Shown: one piece after another, positions 7,188 through 12,030 of the stretch | How positions within the stretch are numbered: position 1 is the stretch's first letter | Layout of the letters: each line of letters starts with the position of its first letter | From: Promethearchaeota archaeon | Lineage (GTDB): Archaea > Asgardarchaeota > Lokiarchaeia > Sigyniarchaeales > SOKP01 | Assembly: GCA_016930515.1 (NCBI GenBank) | Contig: JAFGGO010000018.1 | Coordinates: 1 to 12,865, forward strand | Direction of reading: 5' to 3' | DNA: 12,865 nucleotides | Position numbers and translations under genes: made by a program | Notes under the pieces: generated by a model | What the model was told of the DNA's origin: nothing | The model's input: the letters and a program-made list of their open reading frames with translations, nothing else | The model's database searches: none

Positions 7188-7754
7188 ATGGGAAATTATT
7201 TAATGCGTTTAGAACGGGGATTAATTCATTATTATTACGGGAAAGGGAAAGGTAAGACTTCCACTCTTATAGGAACGCTTATCCGAGCACATGGACACGG
7301 GTTAAAGACGCTTTTAATTCAATTTTTAAAACTTCATTCCGAATCTGAAAAAAAAAATTTAGGATATTTTATGGGAGAGATTCATTTTTTAAGAAAAATC
7401 ATTCCTGTTAAACAATTTGGGTCTGGAGCTTTTGTAATGCCAAATCAACCCCTTTCAGAAAATGATCTAAAAATTGCACAAAAAGGATTTAAATTCGTTC
7501 AAGAAGCATTTACTTCTCAAAAATATGATGTAATCGCCATTGACGAAATCGTAGATGCAATAGCATTGAATTTAGTAGATTTAAAAGAATTTATTAACTT
7601 ATTAAATTATAAACCTGAAAATCTTGAAGTAATTTTCAGCGGTTATAATTATATCCCTCAGCTTGCAGAAATAGCTGATTATATTTCGAATATTGATATG
7701 AAAAAGCATCCTTATTATTCTGGAATTGATGCCCGAAAAGGAATAGAATATTAA
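7188..7754 (+). CDS. cobA: ATP:cob(I)alamin / cob(I)yrinic acid a,c-diamide adenosyltransferase (CobA/BtuR/CobO family)
   Basis: GLIHYYYGKGKGKTS (family P-loop), RAHGHG..IQFLK, YDVIAIDE, EVIFSG, ADYIS and KHPYYSGIDARKGIEY. The start may be the ATG at 7203. Confidence 0.92.
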   Translation: MGNYLMRLERGLIHYYYGKGKGKTSTLIGTLIRAHGHGLKTLLIQFLKLHSESEKKNLGYFMGEIHFLRKIIPVKQFGSGAFVMPNQPLSENDLKIAQKGFKFVQEAFTSQKYDVIAIDEIVDAIALNLVDLKEFINLLNYKPENLEVIFSGYNYIPQLAEIADYISNIDMKKHPYYSGIDARKGIEY

Positions 7755-7815
7755 ACACATTATTAATTCAATTTTATTCTTATAATAAATGAATACATCT
7801 CTCTTTAAGCTAATC

Positions 7816-7854
7816 CGAAAATTTTTAATATTATTGGTATTTAGGTTATATAAC
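7816..7854 (+). promoter_or_regulatory. Candidate archaeal promoter(s) for the leader/mutase operon
   Basis: BRE+TATA-like cgaaaaTTTTTAAT at 7816-7829, and a second TATA-like TTATATAA within the palindrome gttatataac (7845-7854). The AT-rich background lowers specificity. Confidence 0.4.
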
Positions 7855-7870
7855 GAATATTTTAATATTT

Positions 7871-7996
7871 ATGAATAACATTAAGATGGAAAATATGGTC
7901 GACAAGACAAAACTTTTTAGCACCATCACGGTTCCAAGCTTAGTGTTATTATTACCCGTACTTTTATTATTAGTACGCGTAGTATTATTATTATAA
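7871..7996 (+). CDS. Putative Leu/Val-rich leader peptide (uORF), 33-41 aa
   Basis: MNNIKMENMVDKTKLFSTITVPSLVLLLPVLLLLVRVVLLL*. In-frame ATGs at 7871, 7886 and 7895; TAA at 7994-7996. The last 18 codons are 11 Leu (10 TTA), 5 Val, 1 Pro and 1 Arg. Confidence 0.7.
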   Translation: MNNIKMENMVDKTKLFSTITVPSLVLLLPVLLLLVRVVLLL

Positions 7997-8043
7997 AATA
8001 CTACCAATAGACTTCTGCTTCTCGGGGGTTTCATTGGTGGTAT
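7957..8043 (+). promoter_or_regulatory. Attenuator-like alternative RNA hairpins in the 5' leader of the mutase operon
   Basis: H1: CGTACT 7957-7962 / AGTACG 7972-7977. H2: GTAGTATT 7979-7986 / AATACTAC 7997-8004. H3: ATACTACCAAT-AGACTTCTG 7998-8017 / CGGGGGTTT-C-ATTGGTGGTAT 8023-8043 (20 bp, 5 G-U pairs, one bulge). H2 and H3 share 7998-8004. Confidence 0.65.
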
Positions 8044-8107
8044 GAAAGTAAACACGTTAAATCAAAAAAGATAAGGAAAAGAAAAAAAAGGAAAAAAACT
8101 GAGTAAC

Positions 8108-9742
8108 ATGACCATAAGCCAAGAAAATAAATCAAGAGATTCGATAATTCTCCAAAAAAACTCACAAAGAAGAAATTTATCGAATATCGAAATTAAAGAA
8201 TTATATACTCCCGAAGACATTAAAGATTTCGATTATAATAGAGATTTGGGTGCCCCAGGAGAGTTTCCTTTTACTAGGGGCGTATATCCTTCAATGTATC
8301 GTGGAAGACTTTGGACAATGCGTCAATTTGCAGGGTTGGGAACAGCGGAACAAACTAACGAGAGATATAAGTTTTTAATTGAACATGGACAAACGGGATT
8401 GAGCGTGGCTTTCAGCTTACATACGATATATGGTTACGAAGCTGAAGATCCTCATTCTCTAGGCGAAATAGGAAAAGAAGGTGTCGCTATTGACACGCTA
8501 AAGGATATGGAAATTTTATTCGATGGAATAGACCTGTCAAAAATTAGCACGAGCATGACCATAAACGCTCCTGCAGCGATCCTTTTAGCGATGTATATTG
8601 TAGTAGCAGAAAAGCAAGGGCATTCTCCAGATCAAATACGTGGAACTATTCAGAATGATATTCTTAAGGAATATATTGCTCAAAAATCGTGGATATTCCC
8701 TCCTGAACCCTCTATGCGCTTAATTATTGATACTATAGAATATTGCACGAAATTCGTTCCTCAATGGTATACGATAAGTATTAGTGGATACCACATTAGA
8801 GAAGCAGGATCGACGGCCGTACAAGAACTTGCCTTTACTCTTGCTGATGGGTTTGCTTACATCGAGGAAGCAATGAAAAGAGGTTTGGATGTTGACGATT
8901 TTGCTCCAAGATTATCCTTCTTTTTCAATTCACATAATAATTTTTTCGAAGAAATATGCAAATATAGGGCTGCTCGGCGTATTTGGGCAAAAAGATTGAA
9001 AAATCAATATGGTGCTACTAAGCCTGAATCAATGAGGATGAGATTCCATACCCAAACCGCAGGTGTTTCCTTGACTGCTCAAGAACCAGAAAATAATATA
9101 ATAAGAGTTGCCTTGCAAGGAATGGCTGCCGTATTGGGAGGAACGCAATCCTTACATACGAATTCATTCGACGAAGCGCTCTGTCTGCCTACCGAAAAAG
9201 CCGCTAAAATTGCGTTAAGAACCCAACAGATCATTGCTCACGAGACGGGTGTTACTGATACAATCGATCCTTTAGCGGGGTCCTATTATGTTGAATGGTT
9301 GACAAAAAAAATGGAAGAAGAAGCCGAAAAATATTTTGAAAAAATCGAAGCTTTAGGAGGAGTTATTCCAGCGATTCGAGAGAATTTCTTTCAAAAAGAA
9401 ATCGCTAACGCGTCCTATCAGTTCCAACAGGAAGTGGAAAATAAAGATTATACTATCGTAGGAGTTAACCAATTCCAACAAAAAGAGACTTGCAAGACAG
9501 AAATTCTAAAAATCGATGAGGATGTGGCAAAAATCCAAATACAAAAAGTAAAAGAAATTAAAAAAGTCCGAGATAACGATAAAATGGCACAAAAACTGAA
9601 CGCCTTGAAAAAAGCAGCGGAGAGTACTGAAAATTTAATGCCTTATATCATTGATGCAGTAAGCGAATATGCATCGGTGGGAGAAATAATAGCCACGCTA
9701 AAAGAAGTGTTTGGCATTTACAAGGAGGATTCGATCTTTTAA
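8108..9742 (+). CDS. B12-dependent acyl-CoA mutase, large (TIM-barrel) subunit; isobutyryl-CoA-mutase-type specificity residues
   Basis: PGEFPFTRG.YP.MY, WTMRQFAG, GQTGLSVAF, STSMTINA, GTIQNDILKE, ISISGYH, HTQT, GGTQSLHTN, ALRTQQII, DPLAGSYY. F74 and Q192 occupy the positions of MCM Tyr89 and Arg207. There is no fused B12 domain. Confidence 0.95.
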   Translation: MTISQENKSRDSIILQKNSQRRNLSNIEIKELYTPEDIKDFDYNRDLGAPGEFPFTRGVYPSMYRGRLWTMRQFAGLGTAEQTNERYKFLIEHGQTGLSVAFSLHTIYGYEAEDPHSLGEIGKEGVAIDTLKDMEILFDGIDLSKISTSMTINAPAAILLAMYIVVAEKQGHSPDQIRGTIQNDILKEYIAQKSWIFPPEPSMRLIIDTIEYCTKFVPQWYTISISGYHIREAGSTAVQELAFTLADGFAYIEEAMKRGLDVDDFAPRLSFFFNSHNNFFEEICKYRAARRIWAKRLKNQYGATKPESMRMRFHTQTAGVSLTAQEPENNIIRVALQGMAAVLGGTQSLHTNSFDEALCLPTEKAAKIALRTQQIIAHETGVTDTIDPLAGSYYVEWLTKKMEEEAEKYFEKIEALGGVIPAIRENFFQKEIANASYQFQQEVENKDYTIVGVNQFQQKETCKTEILKIDEDVAKIQIQKVKEIKKVRDNDKMAQKLNALKKAAESTENLMPYIIDAVSEYASVGEIIATLKEVFGIYKEDSIF

Positions 9743-9746
9743 GCAT

Positions 9747-9752
9747 AGGAGG
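9747..9752 (+). promoter_or_regulatory. Shine-Dalgarno site for the small subunit gene
   Basis: AGGAGG 8 nt upstream of the ATG at 9761. Confidence 0.65.
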
Positions 9753-9760
9753 AATTTAAC

Positions 9761-10162
9761 ATGACAGAACAAAGAATAATAAAAGTATTGGTTTGCAAGC
9801 CAGGATTGGATGGTCATGATAGGGGAGCAAAAGTAATTGCACGAGCACTTCGAGACGCGGGTATGGAAGTTATTTACACTGGATTGCATCAAACACCTGA
9901 TGACATAGTTAATACGGTAATTCAAGAAGATCCTGACGCAGTAATGTTAAGTCTTTTAAGCGGTTCTCACAATGCTCTCTGTCCCGTCATTATGGAAAAA
10001 TTAAAAGCTCAAGGCATCGATGATGTGCTAGTATCCGTAGGAGGCATCATTCCGGAAGAAGACAAGATATCATTAGAAGAATTGGGCTTCAAGGGTTTTC
10101 ACGGACCAGGAACAGAATTAAAAGAAATTGTTGAGTTTGTAAAAAAAAATTTAAAGAGATAG
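9761..10162 (+). CDS. Acyl-CoA mutase small, cobalamin-binding subunit (IcmB / MCM C-terminal domain family)
   Basis: KPGLDGHDRGAKVIARALRDAGMEVIYTG (DxHxxG base-off/His-on motif), SLLSGSH, VGGIIP, GPGT. Confidence 0.96.
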   Translation: MTEQRIIKVLVCKPGLDGHDRGAKVIARALRDAGMEVIYTGLHQTPDDIVNTVIQEDPDAVMLSLLSGSHNALCPVIMEKLKAQGIDDVLVSVGGIIPEEDKISLEELGFKGFHGPGTELKEIVEFVKKNLKR

Positions 10163-10168
10163 AACAAA

Positions 10169-11170
10169 ATGGATACCACCACTCTAATAACGCTTCTTAA
10201 AGAAGGAAACACGCGCGCAGCTGCCCGTTTGATAACGATTGTTGAGAATAATATCAAGGATTCAGAGATGATCATTAAATCCATTTACAAAGATACGGGA
10301 AAAGCTTATATTTTAGGAATTACGGGTGCTCCAGGGGCGGGAAAAAGTACTTTTATCTCAACTTTAACCAAAAAATTTGTTAATCAGGGTAAAAAAGTAG
10401 GGATTATATGCGTTGATCCCACCTCTCCGTTGACGGGAGGCGCGTTATTGGGAGATAGGATACGAATGAAAGATAATTTCTCCCTTGAAAATGTATTCAT
10501 TCGAAGCATGGCAAACAGGGGTCAATTAGGTGGATTAGCTCGAGCAACCGAAGATGTGATAAAAATCCTTGATGTCTACGGGTGTGATATCATTATTGTT
10601 GAAACTGTAGGAGTTGGGCAATCTGAAATCGATATTTTTCGGTCAGCACATACCGTTATTGTTTTATTAGTACCAGGAACGGGTGACGATATCCAAGCTA
10701 TTAAGGCAGGATTAATGGAAATTACGGATATATTTGCTGTCAATAAGATGGATCTACCTGGTGCGGATCGTAAGGTAGCGGATATAATCCAAATGCTTGA
10801 ATTAAATACTAATTTTCGCTATGAATCAGACAATCCGAATGCCCGGAACTTTAAATTGCAAGAGTGGGTTCCAGAAATTATAAAGGTTAATTCTATTACT
10901 GGAAAAAACTTTGTTGAACTTTCTAATATAATCCAGAAACACGAGCATTTTCTCAGAAAAAATGGTGTTTTCCATAGTTACATGATAAATAGGATAAAAG
11001 CGGAAACGATGCAAATACTCAAACACAAAATTGTGAAAAAAATAGAAGGGCTTCTCAATTCAAACAAATTTATCGAAGACCACGAATCACAAGTTTTAGA
11101 TAAATCCTTGGATCCCTATTCAATGGCAGATCTCATCATTAAGATGGTAGGGTTGGATCAAAAAAAATAA
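10169..11170 (+). CDS. meaB: Mutase-associated G-protein chaperone MeaB (MMAA/ArgK family)
   Basis: GITGAPGAGKST, VDPTSP..GGALLGDRIRM, FIRS...RG.LGGL, VETVGVGQSE, GDDIQAIKAG, NKMD. Confidence 0.96.
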   Translation: MDTTTLITLLKEGNTRAAARLITIVENNIKDSEMIIKSIYKDTGKAYILGITGAPGAGKSTFISTLTKKFVNQGKKVGIICVDPTSPLTGGALLGDRIRMKDNFSLENVFIRSMANRGQLGGLARATEDVIKILDVYGCDIIIVETVGVGQSEIDIFRSAHTVIVLLVPGTGDDIQAIKAGLMEITDIFAVNKMDLPGADRKVADIIQMLELNTNFRYESDNPNARNFKLQEWVPEIIKVNSITGKNFVELSNIIQKHEHFLRKNGVFHSYMINRIKAETMQILKHKIVKKIEGLLNSNKFIEDHESQVLDKSLDPYSMADLIIKMVGLDQKK

Positions 11171-11259: not shown

Positions 11260-12030
11260 ATGAGACTAATTGTCATAGGTGGAGGAAAATTTGGAAAAAA
11301 GGCTTTAGAATTTGGAAGAAAGAAAAATGCTCAATCGATTCTAATAGACATTGATCCTAGCTGTATCGCTAGTAAAATGATTAATAGGCAATTTATCTCT
11401 CAAGAAGAACTTCTTTCGAGCCTTAATGAGATTAATCCAGGAGAAATATATTTCTTAATTCACGAAAAACCAAATTTAGAAAAATTATTATACGCTTTTC
11501 ATCCAGAATACATTATTCCAGTAATCCCTATTCACTTGATTGCTTCCATGATTGTTAGAAAATTGGATTTATATGGAATCAATTTGTTTTTCGATGATAA
11601 ATCCTCGCAAAGATTTGTAAGTAAAGCAAATCAAAATTTGATCTTGAATAGCGATTTTAAAAATGGTGTTGTGCTCTTATCATACGCAAAAAATGGAGAA
11701 ATTTGTCCTGATGATTGTGCCGGGCCTTTACATTATTGTCCTAATTTCAAGCGCGAAAAACCCATTACCATCACGCAACACATAAAAGAGATAATATTAG
11801 ATTTTAAAGACAATGAGCGCGAAAATAAAAATTCTTATTTCTTTCCCTTTATCGTTGAGAGCCAGCAGCTTAGATCCGGATTAGGTGGAATAAAGGGAAC
11901 TGATCTTAAATGCTTATTTGATGAAATTGATATGAACCTTGAAAAAATAAAATACAATAAATGCGAAATTATCGTTGCAACTACATGTAATTGCCACGGA
12001 ATAATAAATTTCTTTTATAAAAAGAATTAA
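11260..12030 (+). CDS. Uncharacterised NAD(P)-binding (Rossmann N-terminus) protein with Cys/His clusters
   Basis: LIVIGGGKFG...LIDID dinucleotide-binding fingerprint; CPDDC-x4-HYC and ATTCNCHG. Confidence 0.75.
   Translation: MRLIVIGGGKFGKKALEFGRKKNAQSILIDIDPSCIASKMINRQFISQEELLSSLNEINPGEIYFLIHEKPNLEKLLYAFHPEYIIPVIPIHLIASMIVRKLDLYGINLFFDDKSSQRFVSKANQNLILNSDFKNGVVLLSYAKNGEICPDDCAGPLHYCPNFKREKPITITQHIKEIILDFKDNERENKNSYFFPFIVESQQLRSGLGGIKGTDLKCLFDEIDMNLEKIKYNKCEIIVATTCNCHGIINFFYKKN

What the first reader, a model, noticed from the sequence alone, without database searches (positions are those of the whole stretch)
7940..8107. Mutually exclusive, strand-specific RNA hairpins straddling the leader stop codon, without a U-tract
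Seen: H2 (7979-8004, 8 bp) carries the last Leu codons and the TAA in its loop. It competes for 7998-8004 with the 20-bp H3 (7998-8043). H3 contains five G-U pairs that work only on the + strand transcript, which argues for selection on RNA structure. TAGTGTT (7941-7947) is a further possible partner of 7997-8003, and H1 (7957-7977) lies inside the control codons. H3 is followed by an A/G-rich spacer rather than oligo-U, and it does not cover the mutase start. Inference: the output is not a bacterial intrinsic terminator. It may act through factor-dependent termination (aCPSF1/FttA access to the U-rich leader), mRNA processing or stability, or re-initiation.
Basis: partly seen in the sequence, partly recalled or inferred. 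Interest (0 to 1): 0.8.

Follow-up and report, generated by a model that had tools for sequence, protein, structure and literature searches.

The report
Asgard Leu/Val leader-peptide RNA hairpins
The hairpins are real and belong to a conserved, translated Leu/Val-rich mini-gene plus stem-loop in front of branched-chain acyl-CoA genes in one family of Asgard archaea; it is most likely a ribosome-read amino-acid sensor, a control known in bacteria that I found no report of in archaea.

Summary
Observation confirmed. H1, H2 and H3 exist as described. H3 (7998-8043) folds at -20.8 kcal/mol (z -6.05, against -7.2 on the other strand) and has five G-U pairs.

The window comes from a Promethearchaeota (Asgard) genome. 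A covariance model found about 35 homologous leaders in at least 9 genera of one family. Each has:
- a conserved BRE/TATA promoter;
- an open 27-41-codon uORF whose last 19 codons are 81% Leu/Val/Ile;
- a stop codon -3 to +6 nt from H3 (one case +12);
- an A-rich conserved block.

The next gene is either an isobutyryl-CoA-mutase-type mutase or a POR/VOR-type 2-oxoacid:ferredoxin oxidoreductase.

H3 and a new long-range helix, P0 (7875-7891 with 7932-7949), covary.

Mutase-linked leaders carry almost no Ile codons. VOR-linked leaders carry 1-7. The same genome has the same design before leuA and before an acyl-CoA dehydrogenase-ETF operon.

Best reading: a ribosome-dependent branched-chain amino-acid sensor with H3 as its output hairpin. 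The sign and the output step are unproven. No oligo-U follows H3 and no RNA data were found. First-stage notes of this scan describe similar archaeal leaders on other DNA.

The parts
7815..7834 (+). Archaeal BRE/TATA promoter of the leader. The transcript start is predicted near 7850 (inference).
   Evidence: An 18-nt block is invariant in five genomes and recognisable in nearly all of the 26 leaders inspected. The own genome holds 18 TFIIB-domain matches, about 9 TFB-type genes, so it is an archaeon.
7875..7891 (+). P0 5' arm, directly upstream of the conserved uORF start codon.
   Evidence: The fold of 7875-7957 gives -18.7 kcal/mol, z -3.57. Family-wide 90.9% of cells are paired and 8 of 15 pairs have compensatory changes. 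The A:B duplex has mean z -3.1.
7895..7996 (+). Leader mini-gene (uORF): 33 codons plus TAA. The last 19 codons are 11 Leu, 5 Val and 0 Ile. In-frame ATGs at 7872 and 7886 are not conserved.
   Evidence: The ATG-GTY start is conserved in the genus. The frame is open in 32 of 32 homologues, with a chance of 0.02-0.08 each, while the other two frames together carry 4-12 stops.
7932..7949 (+). P0 3' arm: the codons just before and at the start of the Leu/Val run. It overlaps the 5' arm of P1.
7941..7993 (+). P1, an in-ORF hairpin that pairs UUA (Leu) codons with GUA (Val) codons. In the full-leader fold only its inner part (7950-7984) forms.
   Evidence: -14.5 kcal/mol, z -3.24. 82% of cells are paired on the fitted alignment, but it is no better than codon-shuffled controls (mean z -0.67). 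GTA makes up 93% of the Val codons in the tails against 27% genome-wide.
7979..8004 (+). H2, a weak 8-bp hairpin with the stop codon in its loop. It competes with both P1 and H3.
   Evidence: -5.1 kcal/mol, z -2.35. It is not conserved outside the genus.
7998..8043 (+). H3, the conserved output stem-loop. It starts 1 nt after the stop codon.
   Evidence: -20.8 kcal/mol, z -6.05. It is present in all 32 leaders examined, -3 to +6 nt from the stop in 31 of them. It covaries.
8057..8071 (+). F block, a conserved A-rich motif about 15-20 nt after H3. Its function is unknown.
   Evidence: It is conserved in position relative to H3 across genera and both operon types. A similar motif follows the hairpin of the leuA leader in this genome.
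8108..11170 (+). Controlled operon: acyl-CoA mutase large subunit (8108-9742), B12-binding subunit (9761-10162) and the MeaB GTPase (10169-11170).
   Evidence: Pfam and NCBIfam matches. Alignments to solved structures show Phe in place of the MCM Tyr and Gln in place of the MCM Arg.

Best explanation
The hairpins are parts of a leader of about 260 nt on the mRNA of an isobutyryl-CoA-mutase-type operon in an Asgard archaeon.

The leader encodes a translated 33-codon mini-gene (7895-7996) that ends in a run of Leu/Val codons. Its stop codon abuts the base of a stable, conserved stem-loop, H3. A second conserved helix, P0, ties the mini-gene's initiation region to the first Leu/Val codons. This probably limits translation to an early, polymerase-coupled ribosome.

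I read the whole as a ribosome-dependent sensor of charged Leu/Val(/Ile)-tRNA. Where the ribosome sits on the run decides whether the U-rich tail of the mini-gene and the lower stem of H3 are covered or free.

Most likely sign and output:
- When tRNA charging is short, the ribosome parks on the last codons, masks the tail and pries open the base of H3, and the operon is read through.
- When supply is good, the ribosome terminates and leaves, and P0, H1 and H3 fold. The transcript is then ended or cut before the mutase by a route that needs no oligo-U, that is, factor-dependent termination or processing.
- H2 is a weak, genus-specific extra, not the core switch.

Shown: the ORF, the structures, their conservation and the gene association. 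Inferred: the sensing, the sign and the output step.

My odds: about 0.75 that this is an amino-acid-sensing leader at all, and 0.45 for the full statement including the sign.
For: 1. Family. Covariance models found the element in 23 of 135 and 27 of 151 genomes. All hits lie in one family, with 0 of 19 and 0 of 24 in the other families searched. About 35 leaders were examined.
2. Translation. The uORF is open in 32 of 32, with a chance of 0.02-0.08 each. The N-terminal part is variable but stays in frame.
3. Composition. 81% of the last 19 residues are L/V/I.
4. Geometry. The stop lies -3 to +6 nt from H3 in 31 of 32, often inside its base.
5. Structure. P0 and H3 reach 89.5% paired cells against 84.1% in shuffles (0 of 500) and 41-49% when the partners are slid. 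Fourteen pairs carry compensatory changes.
6. Gene link. Every leader whose downstream gene was checked precedes one of two gene types. One is the mutase, with the Phe/Gln signature. The other is a POR/VOR-type gamma-delta-alpha-beta oxidoreductase. The window's genus carries one copy of each per genome.
7. Codon content tracks the enzyme. Ile count in the tail is 0,0,0,0,1,1 for mutase leaders and 1-7 (mean 3.8) for VOR leaders. The difference has the same direction in six within-genome pairs.
8. Same design elsewhere in this genome. A Leu-run uORF, a hairpin 3-6 nt after the stop and an A-rich spacer of about 37 nt precede leuA. This is conserved with a varying hairpin in 5 genera. A Val/Leu uORF plus hairpin precedes an acyl-CoA dehydrogenase-EtfBA operon.
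9. For the sign. leuA is biosynthetic and shares the design. The mutase leader is Leu-richest although only the anabolic direction links this mutase to Leu. The own genome lacks ilvD, the acetolactate synthase small subunit and a clear KARI, but has two LeuA-type synthases and two Iso_dh-family (LeuB-type) dehydrogenases.
Against: - There are no RNA data at all, so transcript ends, read-through and uORF translation are unobserved.
- The classical antiterminator is missing: H2 is not conserved.
- No oligo-U follows H3. Archaeal termination, as described, relies on U-rich tracts rather than hairpins (PMC7515710).
- The start region of the main gene stays mostly unpaired in every modelled ribosome state, so a simple translational block is not seen either.
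- A ribosome stalled more than about four codons before the stop would not touch H3, yet 19 codons are L/V/I.
- The sign is open. VOR and the mutase are usually read as catabolic in amino-acid-fermenting Asgard archaea, and genus g6 has both the leader and ilvD.
- The oxidoreductase's substrate is not resolved by the family models. The leader-linked paralogue only leans towards VOR relative to the second paralogue.
- P1 pairing is no better than codon-shuffled controls.
- The two mutase-leader lineages may share one origin, so the Ile contrast amounts to few independent events.
Confidence: 0.45

Rival explanations
1. Same ribosome-read sensor with the opposite sign, giving catabolic induction. 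Only a ribosome that finishes the Leu/Val/Ile run reaches the stop codon at or inside the base of H3 and unwinds the lower stem, which allows read-through or downstream expression. A ribosome stalled upstream leaves H3 folded and the operon stays off. The cell would then oxidise branched-chain amino acids only when they are plentiful.
For: The stop codon lies -3 to +6 nt from H3, often inside its base, so a terminating ribosome must open about 9-14 bp. Under this sign all 19 L/V/I codons would count. VOR, the mutase and acyl-CoA dehydrogenase-ETF form a plausible Val-to-crotonyl-CoA degradation route. Genus g6 keeps ilvD and still has the leader. The top of H3 looks like an A-tract, small hairpin and U-tract in most members.
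Against: The same geometry precedes the biosynthetic leuA, where this sign would be wrong. The mutase leader is dominated by Leu codons, and Leu breakdown does not pass through isobutyryl-CoA. The opening by a terminating ribosome is transient.
Confidence: 0.25
2. The mini-gene encodes an independent small hydrophobic (membrane) peptide. H3, with its U-rich 3' arm, is the 3'-end hairpin or terminator of that gene. The A-rich F block is the promoter of the next gene. The hairpins would then have nothing to do with sensing.
For: The peptide has a polar, basic N-terminus and a hydrophobic stretch of about 19 residues, as in many small membrane proteins. Most VOR-type members have U5-U8 in the 3' arm. 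In VOR-type leaders a TATA-like run lies about 26-35 nt before the start codon (by eye). One relative (G003) has a clear TATA-like box of its own before the mutase. P0 resembles the translation locks of type I toxin mRNAs (own knowledge).
Against: All leaders examined lie closely upstream of, and in the same direction as, only two gene types, 30-160 nt away. The Ile content follows the enzyme. Non-homologous leaders of the same design precede leuA (with a non-hydrophobic peptide ending in a Leu run) and the acyl-CoA dehydrogenase operon. The lower stem of H3 lies beyond the U-run, so it can only form in longer transcripts. The F block keeps its distance to H3, not to the main start.
Confidence: 0.1
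3. Shunt or re-initiation device. A ribosome that terminates at the stop next to the base of H3 is handed across the stem to the A-rich landing site (F block) and re-initiates at the main gene.
For: The arrangement of a short ORF, a stop 1-6 nt before a stable stem and an unstructured conserved A-rich stretch matches the geometry of the cauliflower mosaic virus shunt (own knowledge). The main start region is unpaired.
Against: This predicts leuA to be on when Leu is plentiful. No such mechanism is known in archaea. The spacer varies from 14 to 157 nt in the mutase leaders.
Confidence: 0.07
4. H3 is a DNA palindrome (an operator for a dimeric regulator) or a protein-binding RNA hairpin unrelated to the ribosome.
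For: The lower-stem sequence (ACCAAU/AUUGGU core) is conserved beyond what pairing alone needs.
Against: G-U cells outnumber A-C cells 18 to 7. Compensatory arm changes occur. The window's - strand folds poorly. The site lies about 150 nt downstream of the promoter. The juxtaposition with the stop codon is conserved.
Confidence: 0.05

Closest known systems
Enterobacterial leader-peptide transcription attenuators of branched-chain operons (ilvL-ilvGMEDA, ivbL-ilvBN, leuL-leuABCD) (own knowledge)
   Same: A short translated leader ORF ends in a run of Leu/Val/Ile codons. RNA structures overlap the ORF. The leader sits directly upstream of an operon tied to the same amino acids. The codon mix matches the pathway.
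   Different: The organism is an archaeon. There is no conserved antiterminator/terminator pair, and no GC hairpin followed by oligo-U. The stop codon abuts the output hairpin. The controlled genes are a B12 mutase and a 2-oxoacid:ferredoxin oxidoreductase, not ilv/leu genes.
Corynebacterium glutamicum ilvBNC attenuator and its conserved uORF (PMC11857589, PMC10272879; abstracts only read)
   Same: An Ile/Leu/Val leader peptide with several hairpins, whose roles are still debated.
   Different: It is bacterial, it controls a biosynthetic operon, and it is studied as a terminator-based attenuator.
tnaC-tnaAB control in E. coli: a ribosome held at the end of the leader ORF masks the Rho entry site next to the stop codon (own knowledge)
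   Same: The regulatory event takes place at the leader stop codon. The output is factor-dependent, not intrinsic, termination, as proposed here for FttA/aCPSF1 and the U-rich tail.
   Different: TnaC senses free Trp through the nascent peptide, not through codon supply. No hairpin is involved. Archaea have no Rho.
Mycobacterial polycysteine leaderless short-ORF attenuators (bioRxiv 10.1101/834739; abstract only read)
   Same: Short ORFs rich in one amino acid act as ribosome-read attenuators of the operon downstream.
   Different: They are bacterial, leaderless and Cys-specific.
Archaeal transcription termination by U-rich tracts and aCPSF1/FttA (PMC7515710)
   Same: Most family members carry U5-U8 in the 3' arm of H3, and the uORF tail is U-rich. 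These are possible recognition sites.
   Different: The window's H3 has at most U3, and no oligo-U follows it. Known archaeal terminators do not require hairpins. No conditional use has been described.

Membership tests
Classical leader-peptide transcription attenuator (trpL/leuL/ilvL type) | Short translated leader ORF enriched in codons of the regulating amino acid(s) | tested here: met
   The uORF has 33 codons, with 16 of the last 19 Leu/Val. Family tails are 81% L/V/I. The frame is open in 32 of 32. Translation itself is inferred from conservation.
Classical leader-peptide transcription attenuator (trpL/leuL/ilvL type) | Mutually exclusive antiterminator (2:3) and terminator (3:4) hairpins | tested here: not met
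   H2 and H3 overlap in the window, but H2 is not conserved and is no better than shuffles. The conserved exclusive pair is P0 against P1.
Classical leader-peptide transcription attenuator (trpL/leuL/ilvL type) | Terminator made of a GC-rich hairpin followed by an oligo-U run | tested here: not met
   No terminator-like site lies in 7700-8200. The longest U run in the 40 nt after H3 is at most 4 across the family.
Classical leader-peptide transcription attenuator (trpL/leuL/ilvL type) | Controls genes for synthesis of the sensed amino acid | tested here: inconclusive
   The targets are an ICM-type mutase and a POR/VOR-type oxidoreductase. These are reversible steps between butyryl-CoA and 2-oxoisovalerate, and the direction in vivo is unknown.
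Classical leader-peptide transcription attenuator (trpL/leuL/ilvL type) | Condition-dependent premature transcript ends | not testable with these tools
   No RNA run holds the locus.
Any curated RNA family (Rfam 15) | Match to a covariance model | tested here: not met
   There are no matches at E up to 1 in the window. Only chance-level snoRNA/miRNA hits appear on the second copy.
Archaeal intrinsic (oligo-U) terminator | Run of at least 5 U at the transcript end | tested here: not met
   In the window, the longest U run is 3 in the 3' arm and 2 downstream. Most VOR-type relatives have U5-U8, but inside the stem.
Small hydrophobic peptide / type I toxin-like gene | Stand-alone locus, not tied to one downstream gene type | tested here: not met
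   All leaders examined lie co-directionally upstream of a mutase or a POR/VOR gamma gene.
Isobutyryl-CoA mutase type (for the controlled enzyme) | Phe and Gln in place of the MCM carboxylate ligands Tyr89 and Arg207 | tested here: met
   The query has RQF where MCM has RQY and HcmA has RQI. It has IAQK where MCM has MVRN. The HcmA Asp117 position is Ser. Activity was not tested.

The most novel reading that the evidence does not exclude
This family of Asgard archaea uses one generic module (an amino-acid-run uORF, a stop codon, a stable hairpin next to it and an A-rich spacer) as a starvation-induced attenuator that works without an oligo-U terminator. Here the module is wired to three consecutive enzymes: Bcd/Etf-type acyl-CoA dehydrogenase, ICM-type mutase and VOR. 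That wiring would reveal a non-canonical route from butyryl-CoA through isobutyryl-CoA to 2-oxoisovalerate, supplying Val and Leu in lineages that have lost ilvBCD.
Probability: 0.3. Interest if true: 0.9.

Novelty: new variant of a known kind. Interest (0 to 1): 0.78.

Why it matters
Transcription and translation are coupled in archaea, yet I found no report of leader-peptide (ribosome-read) gene control there. This case gives a family-wide, covariation-backed candidate in the closest prokaryotic relatives of eukaryotes, with clear parts to mutate.

It asks how an RNA polymerase of the eukaryotic type, which terminates at U-tracts or through a CPSF73-like factor, can be steered by a hairpin that abuts a stop codon.

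It also links the mutase, VOR and an acyl-CoA dehydrogenase into one Leu/Val-controlled set. That bears on whether these fermenters make or burn branched-chain amino acids by this route.

Tried and rejected
- Rfam: no family matched.
- RNA evidence: no RNA holder is listed for the locus. Two metatranscriptome runs from the source study laid no contigs on it.
- Other Asgard mutase loci: 25 loci from named MAGs outside the leader-bearing genera were scanned. They showed no leader except one (L023), a match that duplicates a family member.
- 3' arm of H3 pairing with the A-rich F block: no better than shuffles (mean z +0.06).
- H2 across the family: mean z 0.0.
- TAGTGTT-type pairing with the 5' arm of H3: mean z +0.2.
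- Sequestration of the main start region under three ribosome positions: unpaired fraction 0.61, 0.60 and 0.50, so no clear switch. Some start codons in this scan were mis-called.
- Shine-Dalgarno check: no 16S 3' end is present in the assembly. The GTTGG motif shared by the uORF and VOR start regions is only slightly enriched before genes.
- Promoter-position profile to decide whether the F block is a TATA box: too flat to decide.
- Link between leader presence and loss of ilvD: none. g1 has ilvD in 1 of 5 genomes and g4 in 0 of 4, but g6 has it in 10 of 10 and also has the leader.
- POR versus VOR assignment by curated models: all scores fall below the equivalog cut-offs. There is only a relative lean.
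- One weak model hit (L123) was left out as doubtful.
- Literature searches for archaeal leader-peptide attenuation or for this Asgard pathway returned nothing relevant.
Full report
**What is at the site**

An ORF ends in a Leu/Val run with TAA at 7994-7996. Around the stop lie H1 (7957-7977), H2 (7979-8004) and H3 (7998-8043).

| Structure | Energy (kcal/mol) | z against dinucleotide shuffles |
|---|---|---|
| H1 | -4.7 | -3.2 |
| H2 | -5.1 | -2.35 |
| H3 | -20.8 | -6.05 (0 of 200 shuffles as good) |
| H3, opposite strand | -7.2 | -2.43 |

The whole 7940-8107 stretch has z -3.22 on the + strand and -0.46 on the - strand. H3 has 20 pairs, one bulge and five G-U pairs. The terminator scan finds nothing, and the longest U run in the 40 nt after H3 is 2.

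**Context**

- The genome is archaeal: 18 TFIIB-domain matches, about 9 TFB-type genes.
- The closest named relatives of the mutase are Promethearchaeota (Asgard) MAGs.
- Upstream lies an ATP:corrinoid adenosyltransferase gene.
- Downstream lie an acyl-CoA mutase large subunit, a B12-binding subunit and MeaB.
- Alignments to solved structures show Phe where methylmalonyl-CoA mutase has the carboxylate-binding Tyr, and Gln where it has Arg. The position of the hydroxyl-binding Asp of 2-hydroxyisobutyryl-CoA mutase is Ser.

**A family of leaders**

BLAST against relatives found the leader in three genomes of the same genus and one of another genus, where a different gene follows it. I built a covariance model on these and a second one on 25 hits.

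| Search | Genomes with the element | Other families searched |
|---|---|---|
| Family | 23 of 135 | - |
| Order | 27 of 151 | 0 of 19 |
| Class | 24 of 151 | 0 of 24 |

By genus the distribution is patchy: g1 5/5, g6 8/8, g4 3/4, g3 5/7, but g2 0/42 and g11 1/53. I examined about 35 leaders.

All leaders share the following, with rare lapses:
- a BRE/TATA block (7815-7834 in the window);
- a conserved motif just before the start codon;
- a small ORF;
- H3;
- an A-rich block, F (8057-8071), about 15-20 nt after H3.

**The mini-gene is under selection to stay open**

- In 32 of 32 leaders the frame is open for 27-41 codons. The chance expectation is 0.02-0.08 each, and the other two frames together hold 4-12 stops.
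- The N-terminal half varies freely in sequence and length but stays in frame.
- The last 19 residues are 81% L/V/I.
- The genus-conserved start in the window is the ATG at 7895. The in-frame ATGs at 7872 and 7886 are not conserved.
- Codon use is extreme. GTA supplies 93% of the Val codons against 27% genome-wide, and TTA supplies 75% of the Leu codons against 36%.
- UUA repeats and GUA repeats are complementary in a shifted register. This explains the P1 pairing (7941-7993, -14.5 kcal/mol).
- That pairing is no better than the same codons in shuffled order (mean z -0.67). P1 and H1 may therefore be a property of codon choice rather than of a fixed helix.

**Which structures are conserved**

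- On a MAFFT alignment not fitted to any structure, RNAalifold returns two helices.
  - One is H3.
It pairs the 17 nt before the start codon (7875-7891) with the codons at the start of the hydrophobic run (7932-7949).
- Counting pairs gives 89.5% paired cells against 84.1% in column shuffles (0 of 500 as high) and 41-49% with slid partners. Compensatory changes occur in 8 of 15 P0 pairs and 5 of 14 H3 pairs.
- The model-fitted alignment gives 7 of 11 compensatory pairs for the lower stem of H3.
- P0 duplexes average -12.4 kcal/mol with mean z -3.1.
- G-U cells outnumber A-C cells 31 to 14 in P0 and 18 to 7 in H3, which fits an RNA read from the + strand.
- H2 loses its central pair outside the genus and has mean z 0.0.
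- The TAGTGTT-type pairing has mean z +0.2.
- The fold of the full window leader contains P0, an extended H1 and H3 together.

The conserved competition is P0 against P1, for 7939-7949.

**Geometry**

- The stop codon lies -3 to +6 nt from the first paired base of H3 in 31 of 32 leaders, and often pairs as part of the stem.
- A ribosome with the stop or one of the last three sense codons in its A site must therefore open much of the conserved lower stem. This rests on the usual footprint of about 12-15 nt ahead of the A site (established knowledge).
- In most VOR-type members the 3' arm holds U5-U8 paired to an A-tract. In the window's genus the run is only U2-U4.

**Gene association**

- Six leaders (two genera) precede the mutase.
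- The others are followed within 30-50 nt by an ORF of 190-197 residues. Eight of these ORFs, seven from other genomes and the own-genome copy, were checked and match the gamma subunit of the pyruvate/2-ketoisovalerate oxidoreductase subfamily. For the own-genome copy the delta, alpha and beta subunits follow.
- The window's own genome has this second copy at contig C126, 41902-42001. Its genus carries one leader of each type per genome.
- The curated models cannot tell POR from VOR. The leader-linked paralogue scores slightly better on the VOR alpha, beta and delta models. The other paralogue (contig C186, no such leader) leans towards POR by 27-38 bits.

**Evidence for sensing**

- The Ile count in the last 19 residues is 0,0,0,0,1,1 for mutase leaders and 1-7 (mean 3.8) for oxidoreductase leaders. 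The direction is the same in all six genomes that carry both.
  - This fits the chemistry. Isobutyryl-CoA relates to Val and, through 2-oxoisovalerate, to Leu. VOR also handles the Ile keto acid.
  - The caveat is that the mutase leaders form only two lineages.
- Prompted by first-stage notes, I checked two more sites in the same genome.
  - Before a LeuA-type gene (contig C134) lies a 35-codon ORF ending in a Leu run. A -23.9 kcal/mol hairpin starts 3 nt after the stop, and an A-rich spacer of 37 nt follows.
  - This layout recurs in five genera, with Leu runs and hairpins of differing sequence.
  - Before an acyl-CoA dehydrogenase-EtfB-EtfA operon (contig C122) lies a 25-codon ORF ending in a Val/Leu run, followed 2 nt later by a -18.3 kcal/mol hairpin.

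So the module of uORF run, stop, hairpin and A-rich spacer is generic here, and its codon content follows the gene behind it.

**Mechanism**

Shown are the parts and their conservation. Inferred is that ribosome position on the run sets the state of H3. Two signs are possible.

*For 'on when Leu/Val-tRNA is short':*
- leuA shares the design.
- The mutase leader is Leu-richest, although only the anabolic direction ties this mutase to Leu.
- The own genome (94% complete) lacks ilvD, the acetolactate synthase small subunit and a convincing KARI. It keeps two LeuA-type synthases, two Iso_dh-family (LeuB-type) dehydrogenases and two branched-chain aminotransferases. 2-Oxoisovalerate must therefore come from Val or from VOR running backwards.
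- ilvD is also missing from 4 of 5 g1 genomes and 4 of 4 g4 genomes.

*For 'on when supply is good':*
- The usual catabolic reading of these enzymes.
- The stop codon inside H3.
- g6 has ilvD in 10 of 10 genomes and still has the leader.

*The output step is open.*
- The main start region is about 60% unpaired in all modelled states.
- No oligo-U follows H3.
- Described archaeal termination uses U-rich tracts and aCPSF1/FttA rather than hairpins (PMC7515710).

I favour conditional, factor-dependent termination or cleavage between H3 and the main gene. A parked ribosome would mask the U-rich uORF tail and the base of H3, much as a stalled ribosome masks the Rho site in tnaC (own knowledge). P0 would restrict uORF translation to an early ribosome. 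This is a hypothesis, not a result.

**Rivals**

An independent small membrane peptide with its own terminator and a promoter in the F block is hard to square with three findings:
- the exclusive synteny;
- the Ile contrast;
- the non-hydrophobic leuA leader.

A DNA operator is unlikely given the G-U excess and the link to the stop codon. A shunt-like hand-over across H3 fits the geometry but predicts the wrong sign for leuA.

**Novelty**

- Rfam has nothing.
- Full-text searches found leader-peptide attenuators only in bacteria.
- Earlier notes of this scan (AI notes, mostly unchecked) describe Leu/Val/Ile leader ORFs followed by a hairpin before ilv/leu genes in other archaeal lineages, and another Val/Leu leader family in an Asgard genome.
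- So the scan has seen the kind before on other DNA.
- New here are the VOR, mutase and acyl-CoA dehydrogenase targets, the P0 helix and the family-wide covariation.

Noticed in passing
G000:C126:41902-42001 (L127:1003-1102); operon L127:1133-4267: The window's own genome holds a second copy of the same leader (33-codon L/V/I uORF plus H3). It lies 31 nt before a POR/VOR-type gamma-delta-alpha-beta oxidoreductase operon.
   Followed up: yes
G000:C134, about 20520-20720, minus strand (L143): A Leu-run leader ORF (35 codons, ending in five Leu codons) lies before a LeuA-type gene, with a -23.9 kcal/mol hairpin 3 nt after the stop and a 37-nt A-rich spacer. It is conserved in five genera, with hairpins that differ in sequence.
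   Followed up: partly
G000:C122, stop at 19913, minus strand (L142): A 25-codon ORF ends in a Val/Leu run and is followed 2 nt later by a -18.3 kcal/mol hairpin. It lies upstream of an acyl-CoA dehydrogenase-EtfB-EtfA operon. This is a third acyl-CoA operon with a Val/Leu leader of unrelated sequence.
   Followed up: partly
whole genome G000: No ilvD, no acetolactate synthase small subunit and only weak KARI_N matches were found. Two LeuA_dimer synthases, two Iso_dh genes and two class-IV aminotransferases are present. ilvD is also missing from 4 of 5 genomes of this genus and 4 of 4 of genus g4, but is present in most of the family.
   Followed up: partly
window 8057-8071 and the same place in about 30 relatives: A conserved A-rich block (consensus close to AAAUCAAAAAG) lies 15-20 nt after H3. 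It keeps its distance to H3, not to the main start codon. A similar motif follows the leuA hairpin. Its function is unknown: a promoter, a standby site or a factor site are all possible.
   Followed up: partly
uORF tails of all leaders: Val codons are GTA in 93% of cases against 27% genome-wide, and Leu codons are TTA in 75% against 36%. UUA and GUA repeats pair with each other in a shifted register.
   Followed up: yes
L002:1745-1888 (genome G003): An insertion of about 100 nt lies between the F block and the mutase start. It holds a short palindrome and a TATA-like box about 45 nt before the ATG, so this relative may have an extra promoter for the mutase.
   Followed up: no
window 7879-7895 and the start regions of VOR genes in relatives: A motif of the form AAGTTGGRAAAA precedes both the uORF start and the oxidoreductase start by 5-8 nt. 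It is not the common GGAGG-type ribosome-binding motif of this genome.
   Followed up: partly
window 8041-8073: An ATG inside the 3' arm of H3 opens a 10-codon frame, preceded by GGTGG. It is not conserved in relatives and is probably chance.
   Followed up: no
window 11260-12030: A 256-residue ORF right after MeaB, possibly in the same operon, has no Pfam or NCBIfam match.
   Followed up: no
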